A DNA stretch of 41,573 nucleotides from a virus (IMGVR_UViG_3300025153_000011); one strand, 5' to 3'. Counted from the stretch's first letter, positions 1 through 41,573 are shown. A program made the numbers and translations. Notes: generated by a model not told the origin, from the sequence alone.

Positions 1-127
1 AAGCCTTACTGCAAGAGACACGGAAAGCTTCTCTACCTCAACAATAGGACACATTAAACCTAACAAGATATGGAAAGCCACTCATTGCGACAATCCTCAC
101 GTGTTTACACAAAAGGAACAGACCGAA
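1..127. repeat. Terminal overlap, copy 1 (identical to 41447..41573)
   Basis: Read directly: bases 1-127 (aagccttactgcaagagacacgg...aaggaacagaccgaa) recur exactly as the last 127 bases of the window. An ORF reads through the junction in frame. Confidence 0.95.
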
Positions 128-793
128 GAGGGCGGGTTCATAGTTGACCTGGTAGTTGACGCTAGTGGTTCCAATTCGGGGCAACAAATAATGGTAGGAC
201 AAGCGTGTTATGTAATCGCAAAAGCATTTAATCTAGTAGGTATTCCAATCAGAGTCGTGTCTTTTAGAACTTATAAGGGCGGTACGGTGCTAGAGCGTAT
301 GAGAGACTATCACGACCCTATGAAAAAGACCGAAGACGTGCTTGGGTACAATGCCGATGGAGCGAACAGAGACGGGTTGGCTTACCGTTCGGTATATGAA
401 TTATCTGATAAAGACCCTAGCCTTAACCACATAATGATATGCTTCTCTGACGGACAGCCAAGTGGTTCAAGCCACCTTATTCGTAGTGCTGGTGGGTCTA
501 ATAGCTATGAAAACCAACACGACGAATATGGAGTGATAGACAAGTCAAAACCCCTCAACTATCTGTTCAACGGAAAAGACGGCTTAGATGATACTGCGGA
601 AGCTATTAGAGACATTAGAAAAAAGGGTGTCGCCTTGATGGGGGTTTACGCTACTGACTATAAAGACCCTAGAGCCTTAAAGTGTGAACAACTGTGTTTT
701 GGCAAGGACTTTGCGAACATTAACACACCAGGCACTATGGTTCCTGTCGTAGCAAAATACATAAAACAACAAATTGCAAAGACTTTCGAGTAA
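1..793 (+). CDS. C-terminal half of the CobT-like VWA protein whose start is at 40143 (gene wraps the contig junction)
   Basis: The open frame from 40143 runs to the window end without a stop. After removing the duplicated 127 nt it is in the same frame as ORF 101..793, with stop TAA at 791..793. MIDAS-type DxSxS motif DASGS at 158..172. VWA-like strand pattern (FIVDLVVDASGS ... IPIRVVSFRT ... IMICFSDGQPSG). Confidence 0.85.
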   Translation, partial: SLTARDTESFSTSTIGHIKPNKIWKATHCDNPHVFTQKEQTEEGGFIVDLVVDASGSNSGQQIMVGQACYVIAKAFNLVGIPIRVVSFRTYKGGTVLERMRDYHDPMKKTEDVLGYNADGANRDGLAYRSVYELSDKDPSLNHIMICFSDGQPSGSSHLIRSAGGSNSYENQHDEYGVIDKSKPLNYLFNGKDGLDDTAEAIRDIRKKGVALMGVYATDYKDPRALKCEQLCFGKDFANINTPGTMVPVVAKYIKQQIAKTFE

Positions 794-804: not shown

Positions 805-832
805 AAGGGGTTGACAGTGTGTTCAACCCCTT
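805..832. promoter_or_regulatory. 10-bp perfect inverted repeat (aaggggttga / tcaacccctt, 8-nt loop) overlapping the -35 of the 811 promoter
   Basis: Read directly. It lies 12 nt after the VWA stop codon, has no following T-tract, and covers TTGACA at 811..816. Confidence 0.6.
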
Positions 833-839
833 GTATACT
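811..839 (+). promoter_or_regulatory. Sigma-A/sigma-70-type promoter (TTGACA - 17 nt - TATACT)
   Basis: TTGACA at 811..816 and TATACT at 834..839 with an exact 17-nt spacer. Located in an intergenic region upstream of an RBS-led small gene. Confidence 0.7.
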
Positions 840-1032: not shown

Positions 1033-1063
1033 TGATTACTAAGTGAAAGGGGGTGGAGAAGAA

Positions 1064-1222
1064 ATGGCTATTGAGGAAAACACAAAGAAGTATGATGATA
1101 AACAGGCTACTAACGTCAGAATAGACCCGACGTTAAAAGACAGATTATTGCAAGAAGCAGATGAAAAGAAAAAGACTATGGCAGAAATAATTAATGATAT
1201 GCTAAGAAGACGCTATAAATAA
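1064..1222 (+). CDS. Small ribbon-helix-helix (Arc/CopG-like) DNA-binding protein candidate (52 aa)
   Basis: GGGGGTGGAG RBS, ATG at 1064, TAA at 1220..1222. Translation MAIEENTKKYDDKQATNVRIDPTLKDRLLQEADEKKKTMAEIINDMLRRRYK. The segment VRIDPTLKDRL..EADEKKKTMAEIINDML fits a beta-strand/helix/helix RHH pattern. Confidence 0.55.
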   Translation: MAIEENTKKYDDKQATNVRIDPTLKDRLLQEADEKKKTMAEIINDMLRRRYK

Positions 1223-4842: not shown

Positions 4843-5183
4843 TGAGGATAAGCAATCACGCAATGACACGTTATATGACTAGAATGGGCGTGTCGTTCTC
4901 TCCCGGCATAGAAAAGCAAGTGATAACTATGGTGGAGCAAGGCACGATAATAACGCCAAAGCGAGCTATAGAGCTAGGCTTTAAGCTGACTAAACTAATA
5001 CGACGTGATATTTATGTGGAGATGTATGACCATAACACAGCCGAAGTGCTACTCGGCATCATTGCTAAAGACAATACTCTCAAAACAATCTTGACGAAAG
5101 ATATGTTTATAGAGAATAGCCAAAAGGCAGAGCTGTTACGACAGCGTGCAGAGGGGGTGGAAGAGCTTGTATCGACAATGTAG
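4842..5183 (+). CDS. Hypothetical protein (113 aa)
   Basis: TAATG stop/start overlap with the upstream gene. GCGGAGGGG RBS. No recognisable motif. Confidence 0.6.
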   Translation: MRISNHAMTRYMTRMGVSFSPGIEKQVITMVEQGTIITPKRAIELGFKLTKLIRRDIYVEMYDHNTAEVLLGIIAKDNTLKTILTKDMFIENSQKAELLRQRAEGVEELVSTM

Positions 5184-18894: not shown

Positions 18895-19437
18895 TTAGTA
18901 ACTAGGCACGATTATCACTTTAGCTGATAGTGCCTGTGCTGAATAGGTCGCATTACTCGTATACGCCTTTAAAAATAGGTTCTCACTTTGCCCTGGTGGG
19001 GAGATTACACTTGAGCGTAATAAGCCTAGAGAAACTGCTTGAGTCGTTACAGTCGCTAGTTTACCCGAAACAGACCCCCAAAGCTCAAATGTGGCAGTAG
19101 CGGTGGCGTTTGAAACGCCACCAATTACTTCTAACATTATTTTTACATTCCCTGTACCCCAATTTGATGGAGTCCATTGAATTAGTGTCCCTACCACAAC
19201 AGCAGTTATGCTAACGGTAGTGTACGGCGTCGCTTGTGCAAATATCGAGTGCTCGTGAGAGAAATTTGCCAACGCCCCTGTCGAAACAGTATGTGCTTTT
19301 ATCAAACCCCCCGACAAGCCGTCGGGGAGGTTGGATTCATCTATGTTGTTAAGAGCTGTCCTAAGACGCTCCACAAACATCTTGAAAAATGCTGGGCTCC
19401 ATTTTTCGGGAGCCTTTTCTGAATTTAACCAGCCCAT
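18895..19437 (-). CDS. Hypothetical virion/tail-associated protein (180 aa)
   Basis: ATG at 19437 overlaps the stop of the upstream 2018-aa gene (TAATG). The longer ORF-track start (19503) lies inside that gene and is rejected. Confidence 0.55.
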   Translation of the reverse strand: MGWLNSEKAPEKWSPAFFKMFVERLRTALNNIDESNLPDGLSGGLIKAHTVSTGALANFSHEHSIFAQATPYTTVSITAVVVGTLIQWTPSNWGTGNVKIMLEVIGGVSNATATATFELWGSVSGKLATVTTQAVSLGLLRSSVISPPGQSENLFLKAYTSNATYSAQALSAKVIIVPSY

Positions 19438-22400
19438 TACATATTCCCTCCTGGGATAGCCCCTCTCATTACGTACTCGATTGTGATACCTTGTATAGCA
19501 CATCTACCCCGTAATTGTATTGTCAGAGTGCTTCCGAGTACAGCTCCGTATAACGGTGGCAGTATTCTTCGGCTATGTTTAGACCCAGCACCAGCTGGTA
19601 TCTCAGTAGTATACGTTCCAGTTATGACGCCGTCTACTATCAAGTCCACGTACAAGAGCGTCGTATCTGACGTTCCTGCGATGTCCAGGAATATATTCCT
19701 AAACAGCTTGTACCGTTCTGGTGCCTTGAAGTTAAAGTCTTTTGACTTCCATTTGTACGCTACTGGTATAGCGTCATCGTAGTCAGTAACGTCGACTTCG
19801 TGTATCTGTCCTGTCTCACTAGAGCCAGCTAGTAGTATATCTTCTCCGTACTGATTAAACTTGAGCCACGAAGAAACTGACCAGCCCTCTCTAATTGCCC
19901 AAGAATTTCTAAGGAAATCATACACCCAAACTACATTGTTGACAAGACTTTCTTCTGTCGGTAACGCTACGAATAACTTGTTTCTCCAGTATACGATAGC
20001 GGACTGCGATAACCTACGTTTGTTTATCATATTCCAGTTAGGTAACACACGCTCTGTGGCTACGATACTGTTGGCTAAATCCGTAAATCTGACACCGTCT
20101 TGAGCCACATAAGCCACGTACTTGTCTGCCTGGCATATCCCTCTTGCAGAAGAACAGCCCTGTTCGGACTCTAGCCACGATACCGAGTAGTTGGACGTCT
20201 TGTTTCCTGTAAGCAACGCCATTGACCTCTGTTTGGAAACTAACACGTTCTGCCCGTATTTCAGTATGCTAAGGATATAATCCCCGTCCTCTGGGTTGAA
20301 GTCGATAAAGTCAAACGCATCCCACTTCTCTGGGTCTAAGATGTTGCTGTAACGTACTCTTGACTGGTTCTCAGCATCTACGCCCCATACTCTGTTGTGA
20401 TGGGTAATCACGTGCTTTAGCGTAGGCGGAGAGTTAGGTACTGCCAATAACGTGTCTGTGGTACCGTCCCACTTCTTTAGCGGGTCTTTACCATTGGCTA
20501 TTATCAGCTTGTCTCTCAGTACCGTAAAGCTATAATCTGTTCCCAGTGATAGCCCCGTTCCCAGTACCTTGACACTGGCGTTCCCGTCCATTGATAGAAC
20601 GAGTTCGGTAAGCTTTGAGTTGTATCCATAGAACAACGCCTTTATCTGTACGAAGTTATTTGGTGGGCTAACTATGTTGTAACTAGCGTCCACGTTCGAC
20701 CACGAAGACCAGCCTGTTATTCCGTCTGGCGACGTTCTACTCATAAGTGCAAGAGAACCGCCTCCGTTAGTATACTGAGCCAATACCTTGCCAGAGTTCA
20801 GCGTCTTAGCCATCGACACATCAATCGGTGCAGATGTCCACACAGCAAGCTTTAAGTCGTCTGCTTCTCTGAACGTGAAGCTGTTTATGATTGGAGTCTG
20901 CATCTCGTTTGTGGAGACGTAATCAATCTTGAGCTGGATATATGGGTTCATAGTCAAATCGCTATAATCCCAAGCCACGTTGTCAAAATCAAACTTCTGC
21001 CAAGCCGTCCACGTGTCATTGTTGTAGGACGTCTTAATCCAGGCTGTGATTTTGGTTACAGGGTTTAAGACTATGAAGTCTGCAAAGGCTCCCGCCATCT
21101 CAAACTCGATTGTGTCTTGCTTGTAGGACGTCAAGTCGTATACTGGGCTTGTCCAAGACCCTGTTGATTGGAACCCAACCGTATACCCTACATAGGATTT
21201 CTTGTGTATAGGGGATAACGTCAACGCCGTATTAGGTGTCAGCTTCACTCTGTACTGTAAATAATTGGCAACTGGAAGTGTTGCAAAGGTAGTATTTACC
21301 CAGGCTGTCCAAGTGATATTATCCACAGAAGTCCTTGTCTGTAACGCTGTAGCCGTGCCTGTCGGAGTCAAATCATCAAGAGTATACCCGATGCTCTCGG
21401 CAGTAAGCCCGCCCATTGCAAGGGTTACAACGTCAGATGTCCAGTACCCCTCGGAGAAGTACCCTGTTTTGTAGGCTAGAGTAAGCTCTTTAAACTCTGG
21501 TGTGAGTTTTAGTGTTACGTCCGTAGCAAAGTTTACTCTGAATTTCATATACTTTGCCCAGGGTAGCGTTGCTGTTGAAAGCGTCGCATAAGCCGACCAA
21601 GCAGAGTTATCAGCCGAGGTCTTATACTCGATTGACGCTGTAGTACCGCTTGGTATAGTTAAAGTTTTTACTAACGTCTCTGTTCCTATCTCTGGAGCGA
21701 TAACTCCAGTGAAGTCCAGCACCGCTGTTTCGAACGTTCCTGTTCCGTAGTAGCTGTAGAATGTAGCATCCGCAATAGTTACTAGACTATTTTTAAGTCC
21801 CAGCGACTCTGCTTTAGTCCAAGCGTCTGAACGGGCTATGTTTGAAATACGAACTTCACCCATATCCATGTAAGCAGGTGTTGAGTTATCTGCACCTCTC
21901 CTACCTATATATAAAGGAAAGTTACCATATACCCCCGATGATTCATCTCTAGATACCCCTAGCAATGTATCATATACACCATTTGCATATAATTTATTCT
22001 CATTTGCAAACGCTAAACTTCGGTCAGAAGTTACGCCATAACAATTCCAGGAATTTGTCCTGTCTACAGTTGTGCCTGAACCATTGTATTTACTAACAGG
22101 CATCGTGTGACTAGTGAACGAAATTACGCCCGTGGTATCTTCTGTAAGCAGAAATGAGTTATTAGAGTTAAAATTCGAACTGTGCTCCATGATAATCTGT
22201 ATTGCAGTTTTATAGGAATCCCTAAACATTGTTAAAATTGATATTTTGTCAGTTGCACTTAGGTTTAAACTTGGTATTGTAATAAGATTGTTGTTAAAGT
22301 TCCTAGCTTTACCGTACACCGTGTCAACTACAGTAGTTCCCGTAGCAACACCGTTATTCCCATTACCAGTAGCATCTACCAAACTGTCTCCCATATGTTG

Positions 22401-25400
22401 TACCATAACGTAGTTGTCATCATATATGGTATCAAAGTTAGTGCAGAACACTACATCAGCACCGTCTATGTCGAATTGGGTTGGTGGCGTGAAGTTTGCT
22501 GTATGCCTACATCTATCTTTGGTAAATCTAATACCGCTAATTGAACCATTTACCCAACTGCCACCATTCCCTCCACCAATAATTATTTCACGAGTAGCAA
22601 TAGCGGTTGAAGGAATTGTCCCTGCTTTATTTCCACTACTTAATAATACTCCATCAATAAATATTTTTGCATTTCCAGTGGCTAACGATTGGTCATAGGT
22701 TACTTCTATATCGTGCATATTATAATCATTCGGAAAATACTCTGCGGTTGTAAAAGATATAACTGGAGAATTACTTACCCCTCTTGTCATATACACTGTG
22801 ATTCTTCTATCTACCCCTATTTCTAAGTACATACCGTGTGATAAAGATGCTCCGTTATTGTTATGAAAAAGAACCTGTACCCCTGTAAAACTATTTGCCT
22901 TATATTTAAACTCTGCTGTCCATTTTCCAGTAGTTCCCACTTGATGCAAGAAGTTAAAATCAGCTATGTTATTAGGTAGTGAGAAATAATCCCCACTCCC
23001 ATCAAAACTCGCTACCCTCTTGCCAGTCTGCACTCCAGTGACGAGTTTAACATTGCCGTTATAGGTAAGTGCCTTGCCTGTCATCTCTTGCCACGCTTCT
23101 ATACTGGCATTGTAGGCGTTAGGGTTTCCATACCACATGTAAATTTCAGTGTCGGTTAGGTCGGATACGGTTGGCACTTGAACATTATAGGTTGCTTTAT
23201 TGGTCGTTCCAGCTGCGTGTTCTTTCCTTTCAAACTTTAACTGATTGAGGTTCTTGTCTGTGAACCTTATGTCACTCCCGTTTGCCATTGCTTTTGTAAA
23301 GTCAAAGTTCCCTGAGTTAAGGTAAACTATCAAGGGGAAATAAGCCAAACTAGCATCTACTTGAGTTTCTGGTATAGTTATCTTTTTAGCATAACTCCAG
23401 CCAGATAGAGGTGAGATACCTTGAGCACCAGGGTCTACGCTGAGTATTACAGCGTCTTTGCCCGCGTCATACACTGTCTGGACTTTGGTTCCAGTGGTCT
23501 TTACGACGCTCCTGGAAACATCTACGCCTTGACGTGACAGAGCAACTCCCGTAGCTACGTTAGTAATATCTGTCTTGGTTCCGCTTACTTTGGCGTCTGT
23601 AACGTAGTAATTGACAGGCATTGCTTTTCTCACGATGGACAGCCCACTCTTACCACAAACCTTTAGGCTTGGCAGTATGGCTTTTGAGTAAGCGTTTGAT
23701 TGCACACCAATCGTAATCGACGTTCTAGCCTTGTCAAACTTAGCTAAGCCAAAATTCGCAGTCATATAGCTGATGCTCTTGACTTCGGTGTTTCCGTCTC
23801 CGTAGGTAGTCGTGTAACCCACTGATAGCAACGCTCGTAGCTGTTCTGTGGTCTTTTCTATCCACGTAGGGTTCATCTTTACAGCACAGACAGAAAAGCC
23901 CTTAAACACAATATCCGTCGTAACATAGAGATTAACTTCCCCTGTAGTTGGGTTTATAAAGCGTTTTGGGTCTGCTTTAATGCTTACCGTGTACGGTCTG
24001 AATACATTCGGGTCTATTGTGGCTACAAGAACCTGGGCGTTTGAAGTGCCAAGCTCTACTCCGCCATAAGGCAAAGCATAGACTAAAATCTTAGTTGTAG
24101 CATCAATCGGAGCGATGTTAAAAGTAAACGAAAGCTCCGTAGTCTTGTCCCTGTCATAGATTTCTACTGGAACGTAGAATTTCGTCTTTATCCCAGAGAA
24201 TTGTCCAGCCGTAGCTCCTGTTGCAAAGCTCGTAGCAACCCCAGTGTCTTTGATTGTCAAATATTCTGCATTGCTAAGCTCCGTGTTGGAAACGAACGCT
24301 GTAGACGTCGGAAAAGCCACAACCTTGAAGTTAGAGCAGTAAGGGTACAAAAGCCCTGTCTTATTGCCCGAATTTGTAATCGTGGTCTTTAGAAAGTTAA
24401 GTACGCCACTATCTAGCGTGAAGTCATCAAATATAACCCTATCGAGTCTATTTGCTAGTAAACTACAGTTTGCCGTCGGTACAGCGTGAGTCATCTCAAT
24501 CTGGTCTTTGTTGCCATATTCCAGATTTACGCTTGTTCCTGTGGCAAAACCAACCGTGTCATTCACAGTGACTTCGTGATGCAAATACTCAAGCATCAGA
24601 GAAGCCCCATAAAACGTCGCTGAGCCTGTTGTGTCTGTTGTAGGGTATAAGTCGCCAGCAATGCTAAATGACCCCATATAAGTCATATATGAGGGCTTTA
24701 CGGGCGTCCCAGACACCAAGTACCTGGATACTCCGTTTGCACTAGGACAATGGACACTTATCACATATTCTTTGTTAGCCTGTATAACCACAGTAGTCAG
24801 AGGGGCTAAAACGAGTTCAGCGGTCTGCACCGTGTTGATTTCAGTAGGCAACGGGGTCTTTTTAAAGCTTGTAAGCCTGTTATACGCCGTTGTGCCCTCA
24901 TTCTGCCAGGCTTCCCAAATGCTTATAGTGTATTCCACACCAGACAGCAGAGGTATCCATTTTAGCTTAAAGGCTTGCATTGTTCGGTCTACCTTGAATT
25001 TCCACCCATAGGTTGACCCAGCAACGCTGGAAAAAGGGCTGAAACCCGTTAATATGACGTCATTATAGAGCATCCCGAGTGTTCCAGCATCTACGACTAC
25101 CGAACCCTCTTCTCTTGTGATGCTGGCATAAGGGTTAATAGTACCCTTTTCCCAGTCGGCTTTTTCAGTGAACCTACTGCTCATTCTAGGAGCGTCACTG
25201 TAAACTTTGTCCCCAGCTGTCATAATTAAATGGCTGGTTCCGTCTTGTTTGAACAGCATACCAAGACCCGTGCAAGGGTTGGTGCTGTAGGGTTCTGTGT
25301 ATCTTTTGCGTCTCCCCTTTAGGGGTGCTATCGTGCCCTTTTGTTCAAAGGATACGTTTGTAGCTTCCTGGGCTTCGTTCTTGTTCAGAAGTGAGCCACT

Positions 25401-25493
25401 TATTGTCGTGTTAAGCCCTCCAGAGAAATCGTTCATCTGTTCTGTCTGAGACGGTGTTTCTGGTGCTTTTCTATCTGGTTCTACATAAGGCAT
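19437..25493 (-). CDS. Giant tail protein (2018 aa): nozzle/tubular-B-position protein carrying DUF2341, two LamG-like domains, four tandem beta-sandwich-like repeats and a C-terminal propeller-like region
   Basis: AAGGGGGCG RBS. DUF2341-like WSYAKKITIPETQVDASLAYFPLIVYL..GSDIRFTD (about 23110..23400). LamG-like FDGSGDYFSLP... (about 22500..23010) and LVDATGNGNNGVATG...YIGRRG...SDAWTKAE (about 21800..22420). Four repeats of about 97 aa (about 20590..21750). Position after the adaptor-like gene. Confidence 0.6.
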   Translation of the reverse strand: MPYVEPDRKAPETPSQTEQMNDFSGGLNTTISGSLLNKNEAQEATNVSFEQKGTIAPLKGRRKRYTEPYSTNPCTGLGMLFKQDGTSHLIMTAGDKVYSDAPRMSSRFTEKADWEKGTINPYASITREEGSVVVDAGTLGMLYNDVILTGFSPFSSVAGSTYGWKFKVDRTMQAFKLKWIPLLSGVEYTISIWEAWQNEGTTAYNRLTSFKKTPLPTEINTVQTAELVLAPLTTVVIQANKEYVISVHCPSANGVSRYLVSGTPVKPSYMTYMGSFSIAGDLYPTTDTTGSATFYGASLMLEYLHHEVTVNDTVGFATGTSVNLEYGNKDQIEMTHAVPTANCSLLANRLDRVIFDDFTLDSGVLNFLKTTITNSGNKTGLLYPYCSNFKVVAFPTSTAFVSNTELSNAEYLTIKDTGVATSFATGATAGQFSGIKTKFYVPVEIYDRDKTTELSFTFNIAPIDATTKILVYALPYGGVELGTSNAQVLVATIDPNVFRPYTVSIKADPKRFINPTTGEVNLYVTTDIVFKGFSVCAVKMNPTWIEKTTEQLRALLSVGYTTTYGDGNTEVKSISYMTANFGLAKFDKARTSITIGVQSNAYSKAILPSLKVCGKSGLSIVRKAMPVNYYVTDAKVSGTKTDITNVATGVALSRQGVDVSRSVVKTTGTKVQTVYDAGKDAVILSVDPGAQGISPLSGWSYAKKITIPETQVDASLAYFPLIVYLNSGNFDFTKAMANGSDIRFTDKNLNQLKFERKEHAAGTTNKATYNVQVPTVSDLTDTEIYMWYGNPNAYNASIEAWQEMTGKALTYNGNVKLVTGVQTGKRVASFDGSGDYFSLPNNIADFNFLHQVGTTGKWTAEFKYKANSFTGVQVLFHNNNGASLSHGMYLEIGVDRRITVYMTRGVSNSPVISFTTAEYFPNDYNMHDIEVTYDQSLATGNAKIFIDGVLLSSGNKAGTIPSTAIATREIIIGGGNGGSWVNGSISGIRFTKDRCRHTANFTPPTQFDIDGADVVFCTNFDTIYDDNYVMVQHMGDSLVDATGNGNNGVATGTTVVDTVYGKARNFNNNLITIPSLNLSATDKISILTMFRDSYKTAIQIIMEHSSNFNSNNSFLLTEDTTGVISFTSHTMPVSKYNGSGTTVDRTNSWNCYGVTSDRSLAFANENKLYANGVYDTLLGVSRDESSGVYGNFPLYIGRRGADNSTPAYMDMGEVRISNIARSDAWTKAESLGLKNSLVTIADATFYSYYGTGTFETAVLDFTGVIAPEIGTETLVKTLTIPSGTTASIEYKTSADNSAWSAYATLSTATLPWAKYMKFRVNFATDVTLKLTPEFKELTLAYKTGYFSEGYWTSDVVTLAMGGLTAESIGYTLDDLTPTGTATALQTRTSVDNITWTAWVNTTFATLPVANYLQYRVKLTPNTALTLSPIHKKSYVGYTVGFQSTGSWTSPVYDLTSYKQDTIEFEMAGAFADFIVLNPVTKITAWIKTSYNNDTWTAWQKFDFDNVAWDYSDLTMNPYIQLKIDYVSTNEMQTPIINSFTFREADDLKLAVWTSAPIDVSMAKTLNSGKVLAQYTNGGGSLALMSRTSPDGITGWSSWSNVDASYNIVSPPNNFVQIKALFYGYNSKLTELVLSMDGNASVKVLGTGLSLGTDYSFTVLRDKLIIANGKDPLKKWDGTTDTLLAVPNSPPTLKHVITHHNRVWGVDAENQSRVRYSNILDPEKWDAFDFIDFNPEDGDYILSILKYGQNVLVSKQRSMALLTGNKTSNYSVSWLESEQGCSSARGICQADKYVAYVAQDGVRFTDLANSIVATERVLPNWNMINKRRLSQSAIVYWRNKLFVALPTEESLVNNVVWVYDFLRNSWAIREGWSVSSWLKFNQYGEDILLAGSSETGQIHEVDVTDYDDAIPVAYKWKSKDFNFKAPERYKLFRNIFLDIAGTSDTTLLYVDLIVDGVITGTYTTEIPAGAGSKHSRRILPPLYGAVLGSTLTIQLRGRCAIQGITIEYVMRGAIPGGNM

Positions 25494-36122: not shown

Positions 36123-36300
36123 CCGAATACTACAAGAGCTTGACTACACCGATAGAGTCAACGAGTTGATGGCACAAGCTGAACAGGATTTTACCGATAA
36201 AGCGTGTAAACTGTATATCGACCTAGTCAACGCCCAGCTAATCAAAAAGGATATTCAGAATTATGCCATTCTCAGACACAAGCTAAAAAATCAAATTTAA
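36091..36300 (+). CDS. Hypothetical early protein (69 aa)
   Basis: AAGAGGT RBS and ATG at 36091, with a 32-nt overlap with the upstream gene. Followed directly by a strong terminator. Confidence 0.5.
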   Translation: MAKVVQRVANNRILQELDYTDRVNELMAQAEQDFTDKACKLYIDLVNAQLIKKDIQNYAILRHKLKNQI

Positions 36301-36303
36301 ATT

Positions 36304-36333
36304 AAAGCCCCTAGAAATAGGGGCTTTTTTATT
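36304..36333 (+). terminator. Rho-independent terminator
   Basis: Stem aaagcccct (36304..36312) / aggggcttt (36319..36327), 6-nt loop, with a T-run through 36330. Confidence 0.8.
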
Positions 36334-36741
36334 GCCATTGAATATATCAAGCTGAAATAGTGATAGAGATATGATTTAAAGCCCCTAAATCATCGATTTC
36401 AGCGTGTTTTATAGTCTTTTAATATCAATATGCCATCATAGGCATTTTAGAGCTCAAATCGCTCAAAATCCAAAAGCGTTTTTTTAGCATAAATTATAAT
36501 AATGCCTGTAGCCTCGGAGCCTGTCAGCTTAGCGACGCTATAAGAAAATGACGCTATAAACCGTCAGAAAAAAACTTAATATATCGCCTGTAGCGTCAGA
36601 GCTTGGTTCAACTATGCCGAAAACAAATGGAAATCGGCATAGTTAAGGTTTGTCATCCCCCTTTATTCTTTGTTGCCTAGCTTATTCAAATCCTATTTTC
36701 TAATCTCCCAAATCGGGTCTCTAGTCTTGTTGGCAAAACCT

Positions 36742-36787
36742 TATATATATATATACAAAGACGTAGTCTTTGTAATATATATATATA
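36742..36787. repeat. AT-rich near-perfect palindrome ((TA)7-caaagac gta gtctttg-ta-(AT)n)
   Basis: Read directly: tatatatatatatacaaagac (36742..36762), gta, gtctttgtaatatatatatata (36766..36787). Confidence 0.9.
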
Positions 36788-36797
36788 AAGGGCTTTT

Positions 36798-37129
36798 GTC
36801 GAACAAATAGATACTGGAAATTCCCTCAAATGTCAAATATTACCATTTTACCGTCGAACAAACTCTTGGTAAAGATAAACATCGAATTTGCAATGCTTAC
36901 ATCAATTTCCGTCGAACAAAAAATCACTCCGTCGAACAGTCTTGGTAACAATAAACCCATTGATTTCAACGTTTACCATTTATTCCCATAAATGTCAATT
37001 CAGCTTATAATAGCCCAAAACGTTGAAATTCCAATCTTGGTAAAGATAAACTTAGGTATTGCAACGCTTTGCTGTCTTTTCGTCGAACAGTTTTTTTATA
37101 CTTTGATTTTTGTTCGACGTTTTCTGTAA
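36798..37129. repeat. Iteron array: GTCGAACA x5 direct + 1 inverted, interleaved with three copies of a 17-mer TCTTGGTAAAGATAAAC
   Basis: GTCGAACA at 36798, 36853, 36911, 36931 and 37082, and inverted TGTTCGAC at 37121. The 17-mer is at 36864..36880 and 37035..37051 (identical) and at 36940..36956 (2 mismatches). The region is non-coding. Confidence 0.85.
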
Positions 37130-37191
37130 CCCAGTGATTGCAATGGGTTTAGGGTTTTATTAAGTTTTTGGTCGCTTTTTAGTGATTTTGC

Positions 37192-37220
37192 TTGACAAGA
37201 ATTTAGAGCTGATTTATACT
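37192..37220 (+). promoter_or_regulatory. Sigma-A-type promoter (TTGACA - 17 nt - TATACT)
   Basis: TTGACA at 37192..37197 and TATACT at 37215..37220. It shares TTGACAAGAAT with the 38017 promoter. Confidence 0.7.
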
Positions 37221-37275
37221 GTGGATACAGTCAATTTAAACTTGTCAACACATAATATTATAAGGAGAAAAAACA

Positions 37276-37983
37276 ATGGAAAAAGAGAAAAAAGTCTTAG
37301 AGCACAGGGTAGCATTTAGAATGGCGGATGAATTGTTTAACAAGGTATCTCTGGAGGATAATGCTGGGGAGCTAGTACGAGAATTGCTTGAAAATCATTA
37401 TAGACTAACGCCTAAGATACCAAAGCCGAAAGAACACGCTGTAAAAGGTCATTTAGTAGCCACAAAGACAGGGAAACGGGCTCTGATACTCCCAGTAGGG
37501 GATATATTGATGAAAGGGCAACCCGATAGGGAGCGTGTTGAGCTTTGGTGGTGTCCGTTAGAGCACGTAGATACTGTGGTAAAGTTAATGTCGGTATTCG
37601 ATGGTTGCTCAGCTGGTATAGGGGAAGAGGGTAATGGTACGGACTATATGCCCGAGATAATCCAGGAAGAACACCAAGAGCGTAAGCGTAACGGGTGCTT
37701 TACCCCATCGTGTAGAATGGATGAAGCCCTTATCGGGGATAAGTTAATATGGATGAATATAGACGATAGTGAAAAGGCGATAAAGAGCTTCAAAACGCAT
37801 ACCGCAGTACCGTGTCCTATTAGAATTGACGTGATAAGGTATAACGACGACGATAGATATAAAGAAGCTTGTACTATCGGGAATAAGTTATTCACATACT
37901 ACTATAAAAATACCAGACCATATGATAACAGTGCAATAGATACGCATACTAATGTATTCAACAAACTGTACGACGTCGACTAG
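37276..37983 (+). CDS. Hypothetical protein (235 aa) with possible RHH-like N-terminus; candidate iteron-binding or regulatory protein
   Basis: AAGGAGA RBS and ATG at 37276. N-terminal HRVAFRMADELFNKV...AGELVRELLENHY has a strand-helix-helix flavour. The gene has its own promoter and is flanked by shared sequence motifs. Confidence 0.6.
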   Translation: MEKEKKVLEHRVAFRMADELFNKVSLEDNAGELVRELLENHYRLTPKIPKPKEHAVKGHLVATKTGKRALILPVGDILMKGQPDRERVELWWCPLEHVDTVVKLMSVFDGCSAGIGEEGNGTDYMPEIIQEEHQERKRNGCFTPSCRMDEALIGDKLIWMNIDDSEKAIKSFKTHTAVPCPIRIDVIRYNDDDRYKEACTIGNKLFTYYYKNTRPYDNSAIDTHTNVFNKLYDVD

Positions 37984-38016
37984 AAACGTTGAAATTGCAA
38001 CGGTTTGAGAAATGTG

Positions 38017-38045
38017 TTGACAAGAATGTCAGAATGTGATATAAT
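38017..38045 (+). promoter_or_regulatory. Sigma-A-type promoter (TTGACA - 17 nt - TGaTATAAT) of the AAA+/VWA operon
   Basis: TTGACA at 38017..38022 and TATAAT at 38040..38045 with a TGa extended -10. This is the closest match to consensus in the window. Confidence 0.75.
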
Positions 38046-38048
38046 AGA

Positions 38049-38100
38049 GCCATCGTTTGAAGTGTCAGTCTTGGGCTGAGCAACAAACCGATGGCTTTTG
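38049..38100 (+). terminator. Promoter-proximal hairpin plus T-tract (attenuator-like) in the operon leader
   Basis: gccatcgtttg (38049..38059) pairs with caaaccgatggc (38084..38095) with one bulge. It is followed by TTTT (38096..38099) and starts within a few nt of the predicted transcription start. Confidence 0.5.
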
Positions 38101-38280
38101 ACTCGGAGCCGAAGTGGTTGAACAATCCCAACACTTTGAAACAAGTTAATTTTATAGTATTGAAGTATTCATACGCTAGATGTATGAAAGCACAGTTGCA
38201 TTGCTGAATGGCTCGACCAAGCCTTATATGTAACAGGAAAGGTTCGCTGAAACCACGAAAAAGAAAGTGAGGTGTTATAT

Positions 38281-38604
38281 ATGAAATATAAGGTGTTTAG
38301 GGAATTAGCTGGTAGTTGTTTTGGTAAACATAATCCACTAGAGTCTATGTGTAAAGTGTGTACTAAACAAGTTAAGTGTATAGAAAGGGGATTAAGCATG
38401 AGTTATTATGGAGATAAAGTCACTGATTTACTAGAAGAAAATAAGACTTTAAGACGTCGCTTAGCACGTCAGTTAAGAATTAATAAAGAATTACAAGACC
38501 TTGTTGATGTTACAACAACAGGACTTTCTGATGTTCTTGCTAAGACGAAGCAAATGCACGAAAACCAAATTAGTATACAGGAATACTTAGATAGTTTGAA
38601 ATAG
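38281..38604 (+). CDS. Small protein (107 aa): N-terminal Cys cluster (C-x10-C-x2-C-x5-C) + coiled coil
   Basis: GTGAGGTG RBS and ATG at 38281. An in-frame alternative ATG at 38398 has an AAAGGGGA RBS. First gene of the operon. Confidence 0.55.
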   Translation: MKYKVFRELAGSCFGKHNPLESMCKVCTKQVKCIERGLSMSYYGDKVTDLLEENKTLRRRLARQLRINKELQDLVDVTTTGLSDVLAKTKQMHENQISIQEYLDSLK

Positions 38605-38618
38605 AGAGGAGAACCACA

Positions 38619-40130
38619 ATGGAAAAGAGATTTAGACTAGATAAAAGGCACTTTAGCGTGCTATATCAAGGGCACAGCACATCGGCTTTGATAAATGGTA
38701 GTTATTACTTCGGGTACATAAACGACAAAGGTGGTCTGGTAGTGCTTAACGAGGAGCGTAAGTGGAGCAAATATGGCGTTAAAAACTTTAAACAGTATCC
38801 TGGCGTGCTAACAACAGTAGTCCACGTTTATGGAAGCCTTGCTATTAAAGGCTCTGACGTAACAACGTGTACTGACTCGGGGTTAATAAACCTTAAAACT
38901 CCGTCTATAGGAAGTACCTCTAAAGAAATCGCCGATATGCTTGGTATGGACGCTAGTGTAGTAGAAAGTATACTGAGCGGTTCCTTTCCTAGTAGTAGTA
39001 GTACAATAACCGGTTCTTTTTATGCTGGCGGTGGCGGTGGTATTATAGGAGCAAGCACTACACCATCTAAGGCTACTGTAATGCCTCATACTTTTAGTAA
39101 TGCAACCTATGTAGCAGACACTATTGCACCCGTAGTAAAGAAAGAGAGCGTGAAGATGACAACATATCCAAAGAAAAATACCTTATCCCACTTCCTTAAT
39201 GAACAGGGAGTAAGTGACACATTAATAAAGAAAATACAGGAATTTAGAAATGAAAACAAGCTCGATAGTGGAGAAGCTTCCTTGCTAGAACGTATTAATA
39301 AGCCTAACAGTTGGTATGTGGGAAAAGAATGGAGCTTGGCAATATCGGCTATATTAGCTGGTAAGAACATCTTGTTAGAGGGCGATAAAGCGACTGGTAA
39401 GAACGTGTTTGCTGAATGTCTTGCTTATTTGTTTGGTAGACCAATATGGGATATATCCTGTCATACTAACACAAACGCCGAGTCTCTTATCGGTGGAGAA
39501 ACATTCCGAGACGGACAAGTTGAGTTTAGACCTGGTAGTGTTTATAACGTAGCTAAGTTTGGTGGTTTTGGTGTCCTAGACGAAATCAATATGGCAAAAG
39601 CCGATGCTCTTGCAGTATTGCACAGTATAACTGACCGTAGAAGAGTCCTTGATGTTCCTGGTTATCAGCGTCTTAACCTTAACCAAGCTACCCGCTTTAT
39701 TGGAACGATGAATTCGGGATATGCTGGTACTCGTGAGTTAAACGAGGCTCTTGTCTCAAGGTTTGTGGTAATACACGTTACGAGTATGCCGAAAGCAAGT
39801 CTGCTCAAGCATTTACAAGCGATGTATCCTAGTGCTAATGCATCAACACTTGGTTATTTTGCACAGTTATTCTGCGACTTACAAGCTAAGGCAAAGAGCT
39901 CCGAAATATCCACAAAATCAGTGGACTTACGAGGAATACAGGACGCTATTGAGATAGTTGAGGTAGGGAACGTTAGTCCTTATGAAGCTGTCGAAGTGTG
40001 TATCATCAACAAAGCCTTTGATGAATACGAGAAAACACTTGTTAGAGACGTAGTAAACACGTTAATACCAAAGAGTTGGACTAGCCTAGACTTATTCAGT
40101 CTACCAGGTTCTATCTCAGTAACATTTTAG
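38619..40130 (+). CDS. CobS/MoxR-like AAA+ ATPase (AAA_5 class) with an N-terminal extension of about 230 aa
   Basis: GAGAGGAG RBS. Walker A LLEGDKATGKN (39381..39404), Walker B FGVLDEIN (D-E at 39579..39584), sensor-1 FIGTMN, Arg-finger-like NEALVSRF. Immediately upstream of the VWA gene. Confidence 0.8.
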   Translation: MEKRFRLDKRHFSVLYQGHSTSALINGSYYFGYINDKGGLVVLNEERKWSKYGVKNFKQYPGVLTTVVHVYGSLAIKGSDVTTCTDSGLINLKTPSIGSTSKEIADMLGMDASVVESILSGSFPSSSSTITGSFYAGGGGGIIGASTTPSKATVMPHTFSNATYVADTIAPVVKKESVKMTTYPKKNTLSHFLNEQGVSDTLIKKIQEFRNENKLDSGEASLLERINKPNSWYVGKEWSLAISAILAGKNILLEGDKATGKNVFAECLAYLFGRPIWDISCHTNTNAESLIGGETFRDGQVEFRPGSVYNVAKFGGFGVLDEINMAKADALAVLHSITDRRRVLDVPGYQRLNLNQATRFIGTMNSGYAGTRELNEALVSRFVVIHVTSMPKASLLKHLQAMYPSANASTLGYFAQLFCDLQAKAKSSEISTKSVDLRGIQDAIEIVEVGNVSPYEAVEVCIINKAFDEYEKTLVRDVVNTLIPKSWTSLDLFSLPGSISVTF

Positions 40131-40142
40131 GGGGTGTAATAT

Positions 40143-41573
40143 ATGTTAAAAAATCAAAACCGTGTCGCCAATATGGCGTACACCGTAACTGGACGGTATG
40201 ACTTCAAGGTAGAGGGGGGAGAAAACTCCTGTACCGACACTAAGAACGTTTCAATCCATAGTGACAGCGTGTTAGAGCAAATCGGTATGAGCCCAAAAGA
40301 CATTATGGACCTTCAGCTTTCTGCTAGTGCACACGAAGCAGGGCACCTTAACTACTCTAAGATGGAAGATATGACGGACTATATGAAGAAGATGCAGACG
40401 TTAGGAGCCGACCTTGCCCAAGCAAATGACCTTATGCAGATTGTTGAGGACTATCGTATTGATACAGAGATAGCACGCCATAGACCCGGCTACAAAGATT
40501 TGAGTGAACGCTCGCTAAAAGTGTTATCTGGTGTGTTTTCGGAGTTTCCTAAGACCGCCGATAAGTTGTTTGTGGAGACAAAAGCACTTGGCTGTTTGCC
40601 TTACGGGTTGGACTTATCCAAGTATCCCGGGTGGGATAAAGCAGTTGATTGGACTAGAGTACGGGCTATGGCAACTGAGATAATGCAACGTTCCACAAAG
40701 GCAACAAGCTCCAAAGAAAGTGCCGACATCGCCGCTAATATGTATATTAAATACTATGGCTTACCAGACCCTAGTGAGTCCAAGAGCAAAAATCCTAATC
40801 CAGACCTTAACGAGGAAGATGGTGGAGAGGGAGACGGAGATAGCACAGGCACTAAAGCCCCTAACGCTGAAAGCAAGGAGAACGATAGCAAGGAAAAAGG
40901 TGGCGACGAGGACAGTAACGACGCTGATAGTAATGATACTGACGATAGTGAGGATAACGAGGATAGTGACTCTGATAATGATGACGATAGTGACTCCGAG
41001 AGTGATGCTGATAAGGAAAATGAGTGTAATGACGCTGTAACCAAAGAGCTTACGGAAAAAGAGCTTACGGAAATGATAAAGAAAAGTATGGAAAAAAGCT
41101 CACTCGATAAACTTGTGGATACTGAGGTTGATGGAAAAGTTAAAAAGGCGATAGATAATGCAAAGGCTTTAGCGATTACTGAGGATACAAGCACTAGAAA
41201 CCGTGAAGATGCACGTAAAGAATGTATTAAAGTCTACGGAAAACCCATATTAACACCTATCGAAGCACAACGTTTAGAGGACGCTGTAGGGGTAGGGATG
41301 AACAAAGGAGCGTTAGTTCACTACACTGATATATCCGAGACACTAAATAGGACTTCTAGCGGACAAAAAAGTTGTAAAAGCTACAATATGGCATCAATTA
41401 AGAGACTGGATAGACAAGCACTCCAGTTAGCAAACGAGATAAGGACAAGCCTTACTGCAAGAGACACGGAAAGCTTCTCTACCTCAACAATAGGACACAT
41501 TAAACCTAACAAGATATGGAAAGCCACTCATTGCGACAATCCTCACGTGTTTACACAAAAGGAACAGACCGAA
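40143..41573 (+). CDS. N-terminal part of the CobT-like protein: HExxH region + acidic D/S/N/E tract; continues across the junction into 1..793 (698 aa total)
   Basis: AGGGGGTG RBS and ATG at 40143. I translated the frame to the window end and found no stop. HEAGH at 40332..40346. Acidic tract about 40794..41016. 41447..41573 duplicates 1..127, so the unique CDS is 40143..41446 plus 1..793, which is 2097 nt. Confidence 0.8.
   Translation, partial: MLKNQNRVANMAYTVTGRYDFKVEGGENSCTDTKNVSIHSDSVLEQIGMSPKDIMDLQLSASAHEAGHLNYSKMEDMTDYMKKMQTLGADLAQANDLMQIVEDYRIDTEIARHRPGYKDLSERSLKVLSGVFSEFPKTADKLFVETKALGCLPYGLDLSKYPGWDKAVDWTRVRAMATEIMQRSTKATSSKESADIAANMYIKYYGLPDPSESKSKNPNPDLNEEDGGEGDGDSTGTKAPNAESKENDSKEKGGDEDSNDADSNDTDDSEDNEDSDSDNDDDSDSESDADKENECNDAVTKELTEKELTEMIKKSMEKSSLDKLVDTEVDGKVKKAIDNAKALAITEDTSTRNREDARKECIKVYGKPILTPIEAQRLEDAVGVGMNKGALVHYTDISETLNRTSSGQKSCKSYNMASIKRLDRQALQLANEIRTSLTARDTESFSTSTIGHIKPNKIWKATHCDNPHVFTQKEQTE
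41447..41573. repeat. Terminal overlap, copy 2 (identical to 1..127)
   Basis: Same 127-nt string as 1..127. Its length and position at both contig ends fit a circular-assembly overlap. Confidence 0.95.

What the first reader, a model, noticed from the sequence alone, without database searches (positions are those of the whole stretch)
38017..41573. Self-contained phage operon: Cys/coiled-coil protein + CobS/MoxR-like AAA+ ATPase + HExxH-acidic-VWA (CobT-like) protein, with no CobN partner
The best-matching promoter in the window (38017..38045) drives three genes. They are a 107-aa Cys-cluster/coiled-coil protein, a 503-aa AAA+ ATPase with an uncharacterised N-terminal extension of about 230 aa, and a 698-aa protein (wrapping into 1..793). 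The last combines an HExxH motif, a very acidic linker and a MIDAS-containing VWA domain.

AAA+/VWA pairs of this type are known as cobaltochelatase CobS/CobT and as MoxR-VWA remodelling modules. A small podophage has no cobalamin pathway and no CobN here, so the substrate must be something else. Candidates are a host or phage complex that is remodelled, or a conflict or anti-defence function. The operon sits between the putative origin and the replication genes, which suggests early or middle expression. I consider this the strongest candidate for an undescribed functional system in the window.
Basis: partly seen in the sequence, partly recalled or inferred. Interest (0 to 1): 0.8.

Follow-up and report, generated by a model that had tools for sequence, protein, structure and literature searches.

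The report
Phage CobST-like AAA+/VWA remodelling pair
This phage carries an ATP-driven "motor plus adaptor" protein pair of a type already known to be common in phages but of unknown function; here, as in other viral copies I checked, the adaptor keeps an intact protease-like metal site that the cellular relatives I checked have lost.

Summary
A perfect sigma-70 promoter (38017..38045) precedes three + strand genes of 107, 503 and 698 aa. The last gene wraps because the window is a circular ~41.4-kb phage genome with a 127-nt terminal duplication.

- **The pair.** p2 is a MoxR-class AAA+ ATPase (Pfam AAA_5). By structure it is closest to NorQ and CbbQ, not CobS. p3 has the full CobT/NorD architecture: a zincin-like N-domain with HExxH, a disordered acidic linker, and a VWA domain with a MIDAS site.
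- **Not undescribed.** cobST-like pairs without cobN are already reported as widespread in tailed viruses. Vibrio phage ICP2 and a Gordonia phage carry the same arrangement.
- **The cassette.** The conserved unit is two genes, not three. The small protein p1 is lineage-specific. The pair sits directly upstream of the primase-helicase gene in all six related phage contigs examined.
- **What looks new.**
  - The HExxH plus ED-x-R-[IV]-D signature is kept in 140 of the 142 best new representatives of the N-domain family. It is absent from solved CobT and from the Clostridial chromosomal homologues.
  - The ATPase carries a phage-specific all-beta N-terminal domain of about 60-75 aa.

The most likely mechanism is a finger-in-pore remodeller acting early in infection on an unknown target, possibly with proteolysis. 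Moderate interest; a new variant of a known kind.

The parts
37984..38007 (+). Inverted repeat AAACGTTGAAATTGCAACGGTTTG just upstream of the -35 hexamer. It is one copy of a motif that also occurs in the iteron-like region 36860..37090. Likely an operator or the terminator of the upstream gene.
   Evidence: Repeat families D7 and D12. Conserved in L001 and L002.
38017..38045 (+). Sigma-70-type promoter TTGACA-17-TATAAT with an extended -10 TG. The -35 hexamer lies inside a conserved palindrome, TGACAAgaaTGTCA.
   Evidence: 12 of 12 match. Near-identical in L001 and L002.
38046..38280 (+). 5' leader of about 235 nt, partly conserved in relatives. No known RNA family and no significant fold.
   Evidence: No Rfam hit. 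Fold z-score -1.14. Alignment A6.
38281..38604 (+). p1, 107 aa: an N-terminal Cys4 segment (aa 13-33) plus a coiled-coil half (aa 40-107). Lineage-specific and not part of the conserved core.
   Evidence: The RBS and ATG are conserved with L001, where the ORF starts directly at MSYYGDK. 71-72% identity to L001 over aa 40-75 only; no homologue in L002, L020, L021 or L022. No Pfam, PHROG or PADLOC hit.
38619..40130 (+). p2, 503 aa: a MoxR-class AAA+ ATPase of NorQ/CbbQ type with a phage-specific N-terminal module.
   Evidence: AAA_5 at E 8.4e-23. phrog_249 at E 1.6e-27. PDB sequence hits to midasin, NorQ and CbbQ. Foldseek match to NorQ 9qh6_B at E 4.5e-18 with TM 0.82, and to CbbQ 6l1q with TM 0.84.
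38619..38852 (+). p2 aa 1-78: a small all-beta domain with motif G..Y..K.D..G.LRV.ND.G(K/R)WSKY...F. It is followed by a largely disordered tether (aa ~79-188).
   Evidence: AF2 pLDDT of about 96 with six strands. Present in 31 distinct phage-type homologues and absent from the 303-310-aa cellular forms. Weak Pfam DUF7244 hit in 6 of 21 members.
39381..39404 (+). p2 Walker A, GDKATGKN (aa 255-262), with Asn where Ser/Thr is canonical.
   Evidence: G255, K257, A258, G260, K261 and N262 are invariant in the 54 sequences of A4.
39579..39584 (+). p2 Walker B, D321-E322.
   Evidence: Invariant in A4.
40143..41573 (+). p3 aa 1-477: the first part of the 698-aa CobT/NorD-like adaptor.
128..793 (+). 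p3 aa 478-698 plus the stop codon: the main part of the VWA domain. MIDAS D488-A-S-G-S492 lies at 158..172.
   Evidence: 127-nt terminal duplication. D488, S490, S492, D585 and P588 are invariant in 45 sequences. Foldseek match to the NorD VWA domain, 9qh8_G, at E 2e-10.
40143..40757 (+). p3 N-domain (aa 1-205): helix, then beta strands, then eight helices, a zincin-like topology. HEAGH lies at 40332..40346 and EDYRID at 40446..40463.
   Evidence: AF2 pLDDT of about 85-95. Invariant residues in A5: N10, S29, T31, D32, H64, E65, H68, E102, D103, R105, D107, P115, G116, W164. The topology matches the published description of CobT_N.
40779..41045 (+). p3 acidic disordered linker (aa 213-301).
   Evidence: pLDDT of about 31-35. 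25 of 50 residues are D/E in aa 251-300. Composition is conserved in relatives but sequence is not.
811..839 (+). The next promoter-like site (TTGACA-17-TATACT), which bounds the cassette downstream.

Best explanation
p2 and p3 form a two-component, ATP-driven protein-remodelling machine of the MoxR AAA+/VWA class. Its cellular relatives are NorQ-NorD, CbbQ-CbbO and CobS-CobT. It belongs to the widespread viral 'cobST-like' gene pair.

**Proposed mechanism**
- p2 assembles into a hexamer.
- The conserved segment of p3 that precedes its VWA domain (aa ~440-478) inserts into the hexamer pore as a 'finger' or 'shaft'.
- The MIDAS site and the N-domain of p3 grip a target protein.
- ATP hydrolysis twists or stretches the acidic linker to remodel that target.

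**Viral features**
- The viral adaptors I checked keep a complete zincin signature (HExxH plus ED-x-R-x-D). The N-domain therefore probably binds a metal ion and either cleaves the captured target or handles a metal for it.
- Six copies of p2's extra beta-domain on long tethers probably recruit the target or localise the machine.

**Timing.** The pair is transcribed by unmodified host RNA polymerase at the head of the replication-gene block, so it would act early.

**Shown:** homology, architecture, motif conservation and synteny. **Inferred:** complex formation, the finger-in-pore mode, metal binding or proteolysis, early timing, and the identity of the target (unknown).
For: - **Profile hits.** AAA_5 and CobT_C score above Pfam cut-offs.
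- **p2 structure.** The model superposes on NorQ and CbbQ protomers with TM 0.80-0.86.
- **p3 structure.** The VWA domain matches the NorD VWA domain in NorQD complexes and the midasin MIDAS domain. Full-length p3 matches phage CobT-like proteins in BFVD at E 4e-18.
- **Shaft region.** p3 aa 428-532 aligns to CobT residues 360-469. That stretch spans the published shaft, Q373-R413.
- **Published mechanism.** PMC13036017 gives the NorQD finger-in-pore and linker-stretching model. The preprint gives the CobT architecture of M48C-like N-domain, linker and VWA.
- **ATPase residues.** Walker B and the other ATPase core residues are invariant.
- **Zincin signature.** HExxH and ED.R.D are invariant in A5. 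They are present in 140 of the 142 best new representatives from 1.84 billion proteins, and 107 of the 109 full-length ones also have the MIDAS motif.
- **Other viral examples.** ICP2 gp41 has HECYH...VDHNIE and Gordonia gp70 has HELCH...EDQRIE.
- **Loss in cellular forms.** Solved CobT has 'ALRQARHN' at the equivalent stretch. About 70 Clostridial homologues lack HExxH.
- **Synteny.** The pair is retained next to the primase-helicase gene in six related phage contigs, although it diverges faster than the replication genes.
- **Promoter.** Consensus host-type promoter.
Against: - No experiment or multimer model was possible.
- The N-domain matches no Pfam peptidase family and no PDB sequence.
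- Profile comparison of the N-domain with the CobT_N sequence was not significant. Its zincin fold therefore rests on predicted secondary-structure topology and the motif, not on a superposition.
- In solved CobT the equivalent domain is only a docking surface.
- Walker A carries Asn instead of Ser/Thr, which could mean altered or weak ATPase activity.
- The target is unknown, and nothing in the neighbourhood points to it.
Confidence: 0.6

Rival explanations
1. Auxiliary cobalamin metabolism. The viral CobS/CobT-like pair docks onto a host CobN (or ChlH/CbiX-type) subunit to boost cobalt insertion and B12 supply. This is the hypothesis in the literature.
For: - p3 matches CobT_C and, weakly, TIGR01651 CobT.
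- p2 falls in phrog_249 'porphyrin biosynthesis'.
- The hypothesis is stated for viral cobST clusters in PMC8651126.
- The CobT N-domain and VWA domain are exactly the CobN-binding surfaces.
Against: - p2 matches NorQ and CbbQ, but CobS does not appear at E <= 0.01 in the PDB sequence search or in the Foldseek top 50.
- p2 has no CobS_N domain.
- The TIGR01651 score is 22.8 against a cut-off of 759.
- The closest cellular homologues (50-53% identity) are chromosomal pairs in Clostridia that are not in cob clusters. Their neighbours are GS-III, PFOR and HtpG.
- No CobN was found in the window, and no B12-dependent enzyme (such as a class II RNR) among the ORFs profiled.
- Cellular CobT does its job without HExxH, so the strict retention of HExxH in viral copies goes unexplained.
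Confidence: 0.1
2. Counter-defence or host-takeover protease. The machine recognises a host immunity or housekeeping protein through MIDAS and the beta-domain, and destroys it.
For: - Early, strong, host-type promoter.
- The pair evolves faster than the replication core. p3 is 30-51% identical to relatives against 53-78% for primase-helicase.
- The N-terminal module and linker of p2 are variable.
- The zincin motif is intact in the viral copies checked and absent from the cellular ones checked.
Against: - No PADLOC or anti-defence family hit.
- No experimental link.
- The same pair occurs in very different phages and hosts (Vibrio, Gordonia, haloarchaea, Thermus). That argues for a general function, not a defence-specific one.
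Confidence: 0.15
3. Maturation or metal-insertion chaperone for a phage (or host) replication or nucleotide-metabolism enzyme, by analogy with NorQD (Fe into NOR) and CbbQO (Rubisco reactivation).
For: - The pair sits directly upstream of the primase-helicase gene in this clade, and a few genes upstream of the primase and helicase genes in Vibrio phage ICP2.
- The closest solved relatives are metal-insertion or activase chaperones.
- One distant HEGSH-type pair lies next to a phage GroEL gene.
Against: - Synteny with replication genes may only reflect shared early timing.
- No candidate metalloenzyme client was identified in the window.
- Cellular chaperones of this class do not need HExxH.
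Confidence: 0.15

Closest known systems
Viral cobST-like two-gene clusters (e.g. Vibrio phage ICP2 gp41/gp42, Gordonia phage ChisanaKitsune gp69/gp70, haloarchaeal tailed viruses)
   Same: - Adjacent AAA+ and VWA genes in a tailed-virus genome with no cobN.
- The adaptor has an HExxH N-domain, a low-complexity linker and a MIDAS VWA domain.
- Full-length structural matches in BFVD.
- In ICP2 the pair also lies just upstream of the primase and helicase genes.
   Different: - Gene order here is AAA+ then VWA; ICP2 has cobT then cobS.
- The ATPase here is NorQ/CbbQ-like rather than CobS-like, and it carries an extra all-beta N-domain on a long tether.
- Sequence identity to these phages is low, 27-33% over parts.
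NorQ-NorD (nitric oxide reductase FeB-insertion chaperone; PDB 9qh4-9qhg)
   Same: - Best structural match for both subunits.
- Same adaptor plan of N-domain, long flexible linker and VWA.
- Supplies the finger-in-pore model.
   Different: - No NOR client in a phage.
- NorQ has no N-terminal beta-domain.
- Sequence identity is only 21-23% for the ATPase and 13-14% for the VWA domain.
CobS-CobT-CobN aerobic cobaltochelatase (PDB 9uka and related entries)
   Same: - p3 reproduces the CobT architecture: an M48C-like N-domain, an acidic disordered linker of about 90 aa, a shaft, and a VWA domain with MIDAS.
- The E-x-x-R-[VI]-[ED] helix motif is shared: 'EQARVE' in CobT and 'EDYRID' in p3.
   Different: - CobT lacks HExxH.
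- p2 is not CobS-like.
- No CobN is present.
- p3 fails the CobT equivalog cut-off, 22.8 against 759 bits.
Chromosomal NorQ/NorD-like ('MoxR family ATPase' plus 'nitric oxide reductase activation-like' or 'CobT-related') pairs of Clostridia and Bacillales
   Same: - Closest sequence relatives: the p2 AAA+ module is 50-53% identical.
- Same unusual Walker A, GxKATGKN.
- Same gene order.
   Different: - The cellular ATPase is 303-310 aa and has no N-terminal beta-domain.
- The cellular adaptor (546-618 aa) lacks HExxH and has a shorter, less acidic linker.
- The function of the cellular pair is also unknown.
Midasin/Rea1
   Same: - AAA_5 modules are the best PDB sequence hit (E 1e-37).
- A D/E-rich linker precedes a MIDAS domain that docks on the AAA+ ring.
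   Different: - A single giant eukaryotic polypeptide with six fused AAA+ modules.
- No zincin-like domain.

Membership tests
MoxR-class AAA+ ATPase (Pfam AAA_5; NorQ/CbbQ/CobS group) | AAA_5 profile match above the gathering score | tested here: met
   81.3 bits against a cut-off of 22, aa 250-382.
MoxR-class AAA+ ATPase (Pfam AAA_5; NorQ/CbbQ/CobS group) | Canonical Walker A GxxxxGK[ST] and Walker B hhhhDE | tested here: inconclusive
   Walker B D321-E322 is invariant. Walker A is GDKATGKN, with Asn at the S/T position; this holds in all 54 phage and cellular homologues of A4.
MoxR-class AAA+ ATPase (Pfam AAA_5; NorQ/CbbQ/CobS group) | Fold of a NorQ/CbbQ protomer, including the helix-2 insert hairpin | tested here: met
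   Foldseek TM (normalised to target) of 0.80-0.86 to NorQ and CbbQ. Predicted strands at aa 292-305.
MoxR-class AAA+ ATPase (Pfam AAA_5; NorQ/CbbQ/CobS group) | Adjacent gene encoding a VWA/MIDAS partner | tested here: met
   p3 starts 13 nt after p2. The same arrangement is seen in all relatives.
CobS (cobaltochelatase ATPase subunit) | CobS_N domain and closest similarity to CobS | tested here: not met
   No CobS_N hit. CobS is absent from the PDB sequence hits at E <= 0.01 and from the Foldseek top 50, although CobS structures are in the library.
CobS-CobT-CobN chelatase system | A CobN (or ChlH) catalytic subunit available | not testable with these tools
   None in the window. The host is unknown; the GTDB scan found no prophage or close relative.
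CobT/NorD/CbbO-class VWA adaptor | C-terminal VWA domain with a MIDAS DxSxS...D motif | tested here: met
   CobT_C scores 32.8 bits against a cut-off of 21. D488, S490, S492 and D585 are invariant. Foldseek match to the NorD VWA domain at E 2e-10.
CobT/NorD/CbbO-class VWA adaptor | N-terminal domain, long disordered linker and a shaft/finger before the VWA domain | tested here: met
   AF2 model: N-domain aa 1-205 with pLDDT about 90; linker aa 213-301 with pLDDT about 33; a conserved segment at aa 440-478 before beta-1. This matches the published CobT and NorD plans.
CobT (TIGR01651 equivalog) | Score above the equivalog cut-off | tested here: not met
   22.8 bits against 759.
Zincin (M48-like gluzincin) metallopeptidase | HExxH on the helix that follows a small beta-sheet | tested here: met
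   H64-E-A-G-H68 lies in predicted helix 51-71, after strands 23-26 and 36-39. Invariant in A5, and present in 140 of 142 family representatives.
Zincin (M48-like gluzincin) metallopeptidase | Third metal ligand (Glu/Asp) on a downstream helix, positioned at the same site | tested here: inconclusive
   E102, D103 and D107 in helix 91-113 are invariant. No coordinates could be inspected and no domain-only fold search was possible.
Zincin (M48-like gluzincin) metallopeptidase | Sequence-profile membership of a curated peptidase family | tested here: not met
   No Pfam hit for the N-domain at E <= 10. No PDB hit with profile A5.
Zincin (M48-like gluzincin) metallopeptidase | Zinc binding and proteolytic activity | not testable with these tools
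   Needs biochemistry.
Viral cobST-like gene pair | An AAA+ (phrog_249-type) gene adjacent to a CobT-like VWA gene in a tailed-virus genome | tested here: met
   phrog_249 at E 1.6e-27 and phrog_1576 at E 2.3e-12. Phage genome context. BFVD matches. Described in PMC8651126.
Known anti-phage defence or candidate defence systems (PADLOC) | Any PADLOC model hit | tested here: not met
   No hits for p1, p2 or p3.

The most novel reading that the evidence does not exclude
Viral CobT-like adaptors may be catalytically active zincin proteases (or metal-transfer sites). Phage 'cobST' pairs would then not be cobalamin genes at all. They would be a previously unrecognised kind of ATP-dependent protease or remodeller: the protease sits on the VWA adaptor, the substrate is captured by MIDAS, and a MoxR ring supplies force through a finger-in-pore coupling. 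In this clade a tethered beta-domain on the ATPase would add targeting.
Probability: 0.25. Interest if true: 0.8.

Novelty: new variant of a known kind. Interest (0 to 1): 0.42.

Why it matters
Phage cobS/cobT genes are routinely counted as auxiliary metabolic genes for vitamin B12 in virome studies, yet I found no functional test of them in the library.

This case suggests the B12 reading is doubtful for at least one large group:
- The ATPase is NorQ/CbbQ-like.
- The nearest cellular relatives sit outside cob clusters.
- The phage has no CobN, and no B12-dependent enzyme was found among the ORFs profiled.

The comparison also gives a concrete handle on the open question of what these pairs do. 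The viral adaptors I checked keep a complete HExxH/ED-x-R-x-D site that the cellular CobT and NorD-like proteins I checked have lost. That can be tested by point mutation in tractable phages such as Vibrio phage ICP2.

If the site is catalytic, this would define a new class of AAA+-coupled protease that is widespread in viruses.

Tried and rejected
1. **Homology search with full-length p3.** Only three proteins came back, because the acidic linker swamped the word index. I repeated it with a linker-deleted alignment.
2. **IMG/VR scan with p2.** It found only distant cobS-like loci at 21-25% identity and no close relatives.
3. **Megablast of the cassette against GenBank phages.** No match.
4. 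**PADLOC.** No hits.
5. **Rfam on the whole window.** No hits. The 235-nt leader does not fold better than shuffled sequence (z -1.14), so a riboswitch or attenuator idea was dropped.
6. **DUF2201_N or other Pfam peptidase families for the p3 N-domain.** None at E <= 10. PDB search with profile A5 gave only chance hits.
7. **hhalign of the N-domain profile against the CobT_N sequence.** Not significant. Against ICP2 gp41 it was weak (E 0.009), but HExxH aligned in register.
8. **p2 beta-domain.** No PDB sequence match. Only a weak DUF7244 signal.
9. **GTDB genome scan.** No prophage or close relative, so the host could not be named.
10. **p1 as a third subunit.** Rejected for lack of conservation.
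11. **The conserved upstream 235-aa gene as a third subunit.** Its C-domain is in all five relatives tested, but it lies 0.3-2.8 kb away, upstream of the promoter. It is absent from the cellular, ICP2 and Gordonia loci. I treat it as a clade-specific early gene, not as part of the pair.

Full report
**Observation**

The window is a complete circular phage genome. Bases 1..127 repeat 41447..41573, which gives a unit of 41,446 bp. The same phage was assembled as 41,414-bp contigs from several metagenomes. It has portal, major head, terminase and endolysin genes on the minus strand. A replication block lies on the plus strand: primase-helicase, SNF2 helicase, PolA, PD-(D/E)XK exonuclease and Sak4.

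At the reported coordinates there is a 12/12 sigma-70 consensus promoter with an extended -10 (38017..38045). After a ~235-nt leader come three genes:
- p1, 38281..38604, 107 aa
- p2, 38619..40130, 503 aa
- p3, 40143..41573 plus 128..793, 698 aa

A further promoter-like site at 811..839 follows p3. p3 contains HEAGH (aa 64-68), a stretch where 25 of 50 residues are D or E, and DASGS (aa 488-492).

**What the proteins are**

- **p2.** It matches Pfam AAA_5 (E 8e-23) and phrog_249, which is annotated 'porphyrin biosynthesis', i.e. phage cobS-like.
  - Its PDB sequence relatives are midasin AAA modules, NorQ and CbbQ. CobS is not among them.
  - An AlphaFold2 model (pLDDT 83) superposes on NorQ and CbbQ protomers with TM 0.80-0.86.
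- **p3.** It matches CobT_C.
  - Its model (pLDDT 78) has a confident helical N-domain (aa 1-205), a disordered acidic linker (aa 213-301) and a VWA domain.
  - The best solved matches for the VWA domain are the NorD VWA domain in NorQD complexes and the midasin MIDAS domain.
  - Over its full length it matches many phage proteins annotated CobT-like or VWFA: Gordonia phages, haloarchaeal tailed viruses and Thermus phage P74-26.
- **p1.** It has no family hit.

No CobN was found in the window, and no B12-dependent enzyme among the ORFs profiled.

**Conservation**

Six related phage contigs carry the AAA_5 gene and the VWA gene immediately upstream of the primase-helicase gene (L001, L002, L020, L021, L022, L108; five are 42-44 kb and L108 is 25 kb).

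| Protein | Identity to the window across L001, L002, L020-L022 |
|---|---|
| p2 | 41-62% |
| p3 | 30-51% |
| primase-helicase | 53-78% |
| TerL | 68-90% |

The pair is therefore retained but evolves faster than the core genes.

p1 is not part of the conserved unit. Only its coiled-coil half has a homologue, and only in L001. Other relatives have unrelated small ORFs or none.

**Relation to cellular genes**

The AAA+ module of p2 is 50-53% identical to a very abundant 303-310-aa 'MoxR family ATPase' of Clostridia. That gene is always followed by a 546-618-aa CobT_C-like protein. Source databases name this partner 'nitric oxide reductase activation-like' or 'CobT-related'.

These pairs sit in ordinary chromosomal contexts, not in cob clusters. 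Neighbours include type III glutamine synthetase, PFOR and HtpG. More distant homologues occur in Bacillales.

Phage and cellular ATPases share the unusual Walker A motif GxKATGKN.

**Two viral features**

*1. The adaptor keeps a zincin signature.*
- All phage-type adaptors carry HE[GA][GAS]H, followed about 35 residues later by ED-x-R-[IV]-D. Residues N10, S29, T31, D32, H64, E65, H68, E102, D103, R105, D107, P115, G116 and W164 are invariant.
- The roughly 70 cellular homologues lack HExxH.
- I searched 1.84 billion representatives exhaustively with the N-domain profile. This found 1,350 clusters at E <= 1e-3 and 623 at E <= 1e-10.
- Of the 142 best new hits, 140 have both motifs. Of the 109 full-length ones, 107 also have the MIDAS motif.
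- The same signature is in Vibrio phage ICP2 gp41 (HECYH...VDHNIE) and Gordonia phage ChisanaKitsune gp70 (HELCH...EDQRIE).
- Solved CobT has 'ALRQARHN' in the equivalent stretch but keeps 'EQARVE'.
- A 2026 preprint reports that the CobT N-domain is one helix, a three-stranded sheet and eight helices, 'resembling peptidase M48C'. It is followed by a ~90-residue disordered linker, a shaft and a VWA/MIDAS domain. The predicted secondary structure of p3 follows this plan. The linker of solved CobT is equally acidic.
What distinguishes the viral proteins I checked is the intact metal-site motif.

*2. The ATPase has an extra N-terminal domain.*
- Phage-type ATPases have a confident all-beta N-terminal domain of about 60-75 aa (pLDDT ~96), with the motif ...G.LRV.ND.G(K/R)WSKY...F.
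- It is joined to the AAA+ module by a variable, mostly disordered tether.
- The cellular forms lack it.
- It has no PDB sequence match, and only a weak DUF7244 signal.

**Mechanism**

The NorQD structures show a VWA 'finger' in the AAA+ pore, the N-domain docking on the small AAA+ subdomain, and an essential linker that is stretched by ATP-driven rotation. [quoted passage not shown]

p3 aa 428-532 aligns with CobT 360-469, which includes the shaft. I therefore infer the following:
- p2 forms a hexamer that holds p3 by a finger-in-pore contact.
- p3 grips a client through MIDAS and its N-domain.
- ATP hydrolysis remodels that client.

The conserved zincin motif suggests that metal binding, and possibly cleavage, occurs in the viral versions. 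The tethered beta-domains probably provide recruitment. The host-type consensus promoter, and the position at the head of the replication block, suggest early expression. ICP2 has a similar position. The client is unknown.

**Rivals**

- **Cobalamin (CobN-hijack).** This hypothesis from the literature is weakened by several results:
  - p2 is NorQ/CbbQ-like rather than CobS-like.
  - p3 fails the CobT equivalog cut-off.
  - The closest cellular homologues are in non-cob contexts.
  - The phage has no CobN, and no B12-dependent enzyme was found among the ORFs profiled.
  - HExxH is not needed by cellular CobT.
  - It cannot be excluded, because the host is unknown.
- **Anti-defence.** This has no positive evidence beyond early timing and faster evolution.
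- **Chaperone for a replication or nucleotide enzyme.** This fits the synteny, but no client was identified.

**Novelty and verdict**

Phage AAA+/VWA 'cobST' pairs without cobN are already documented as widespread, so this is not an undescribed system. This clade is a distinct variant in three respects:
- a NorQ/CbbQ-type ATPase with a tethered beta-domain;
- nearest relatives that are Clostridial chromosomal pairs;
- a three-way contrast in the HExxH site, which is kept in the viral adaptors I checked and lost in solved CobT and in the cellular NorD-like adaptors. I did not find this contrast described, and it makes the open question of phage cobST function directly testable.

Interest is moderate.

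Noticed in passing
window 1..127 and 41447..41573: Exact 127-nt terminal duplication. The window is a circular or concatemeric assembly of a 41,446-bp genome, and a 70-kb contig of the same phage also exists.
   Followed up: yes
window 37276..37983 (+): A 235-aa ORF just upstream of the cassette promoter. By eye its N-terminus (aa ~10-45) looks like a ribbon-helix-helix. Its Cys-containing C-domain of about 165 aa is conserved in all five relatives tested (31-59% identity), 0.3-2.8 kb upstream of the AAA+ gene. It has no Pfam or PHROG hit and could be the regulator of the cassette promoter.
   Followed up: partly
window 36290..37270 and 37984..38045: A non-coding region with iteron-like direct repeats (36861..37089), (AT)n palindromes (36735..36796) and a strong bidirectional terminator hairpin (36304..36327). 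One repeat copy (AAACGTTGAAATTGCAACGG) and a TGACAAgaaTGTCA palindrome overlie the cassette promoter and are conserved in L001 and L002. This suggests a shared DNA-binding protein for the origin or regulatory region and this promoter.
   Followed up: partly
window 39381..39404 (p2 aa 255-262): The Walker A motif is GDKATGKN, with Asn replacing the canonical Ser/Thr. This is invariant in the 54 aligned phage and Clostridial homologues, so it is a family-wide peculiarity of unknown consequence for ATP hydrolysis.
   Followed up: partly
window 38919..38978 (p2 aa 101-120): A helix pair, SKEIADMLGMDASVVESILS, within the tether looks like a helix-turn-helix. It is not present in the closest relatives, whose linkers are variable.
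   Followed up: no
L020 8665..8883: In one related phage a 72-aa Cys-rich (zinc-ribbon-like) ORF is inserted between the AAA+ and VWA genes. The window's p1 also begins with a Cys4 segment. Small Cys-rich proteins therefore recur around the pair without being homologous.
   Followed up: no
L109 1569..6570: A distant HEGSH-type VWA adaptor and its 385-aa AAA_5 partner lie immediately upstream of a phage-encoded GroEL (Cpn60) gene.
   Followed up: no
window 5146..7545 (+); L001, L002, L022, L023, L108: According to the precomputed Pfam hits for the relatives, the DNA polymerase A carries an N-terminal uracil-DNA glycosylase (UDG) family domain fused to the exonuclease and polymerase domains.
   Followed up: no
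window 1043..1222 (+): A 59-aa Arc-like/RepB-RCR_reg-like small repressor sits between the cassette and the primase-helicase gene (phrog_582, E 2.5e-5).
   Followed up: no
window 12944..17386 and 19437..25493 (-): Two very large structural-module ORFs (1480 and 2018 aa) have essentially no family hits; the only one is a DUF2341 segment in the larger ORF.
   Followed up: no
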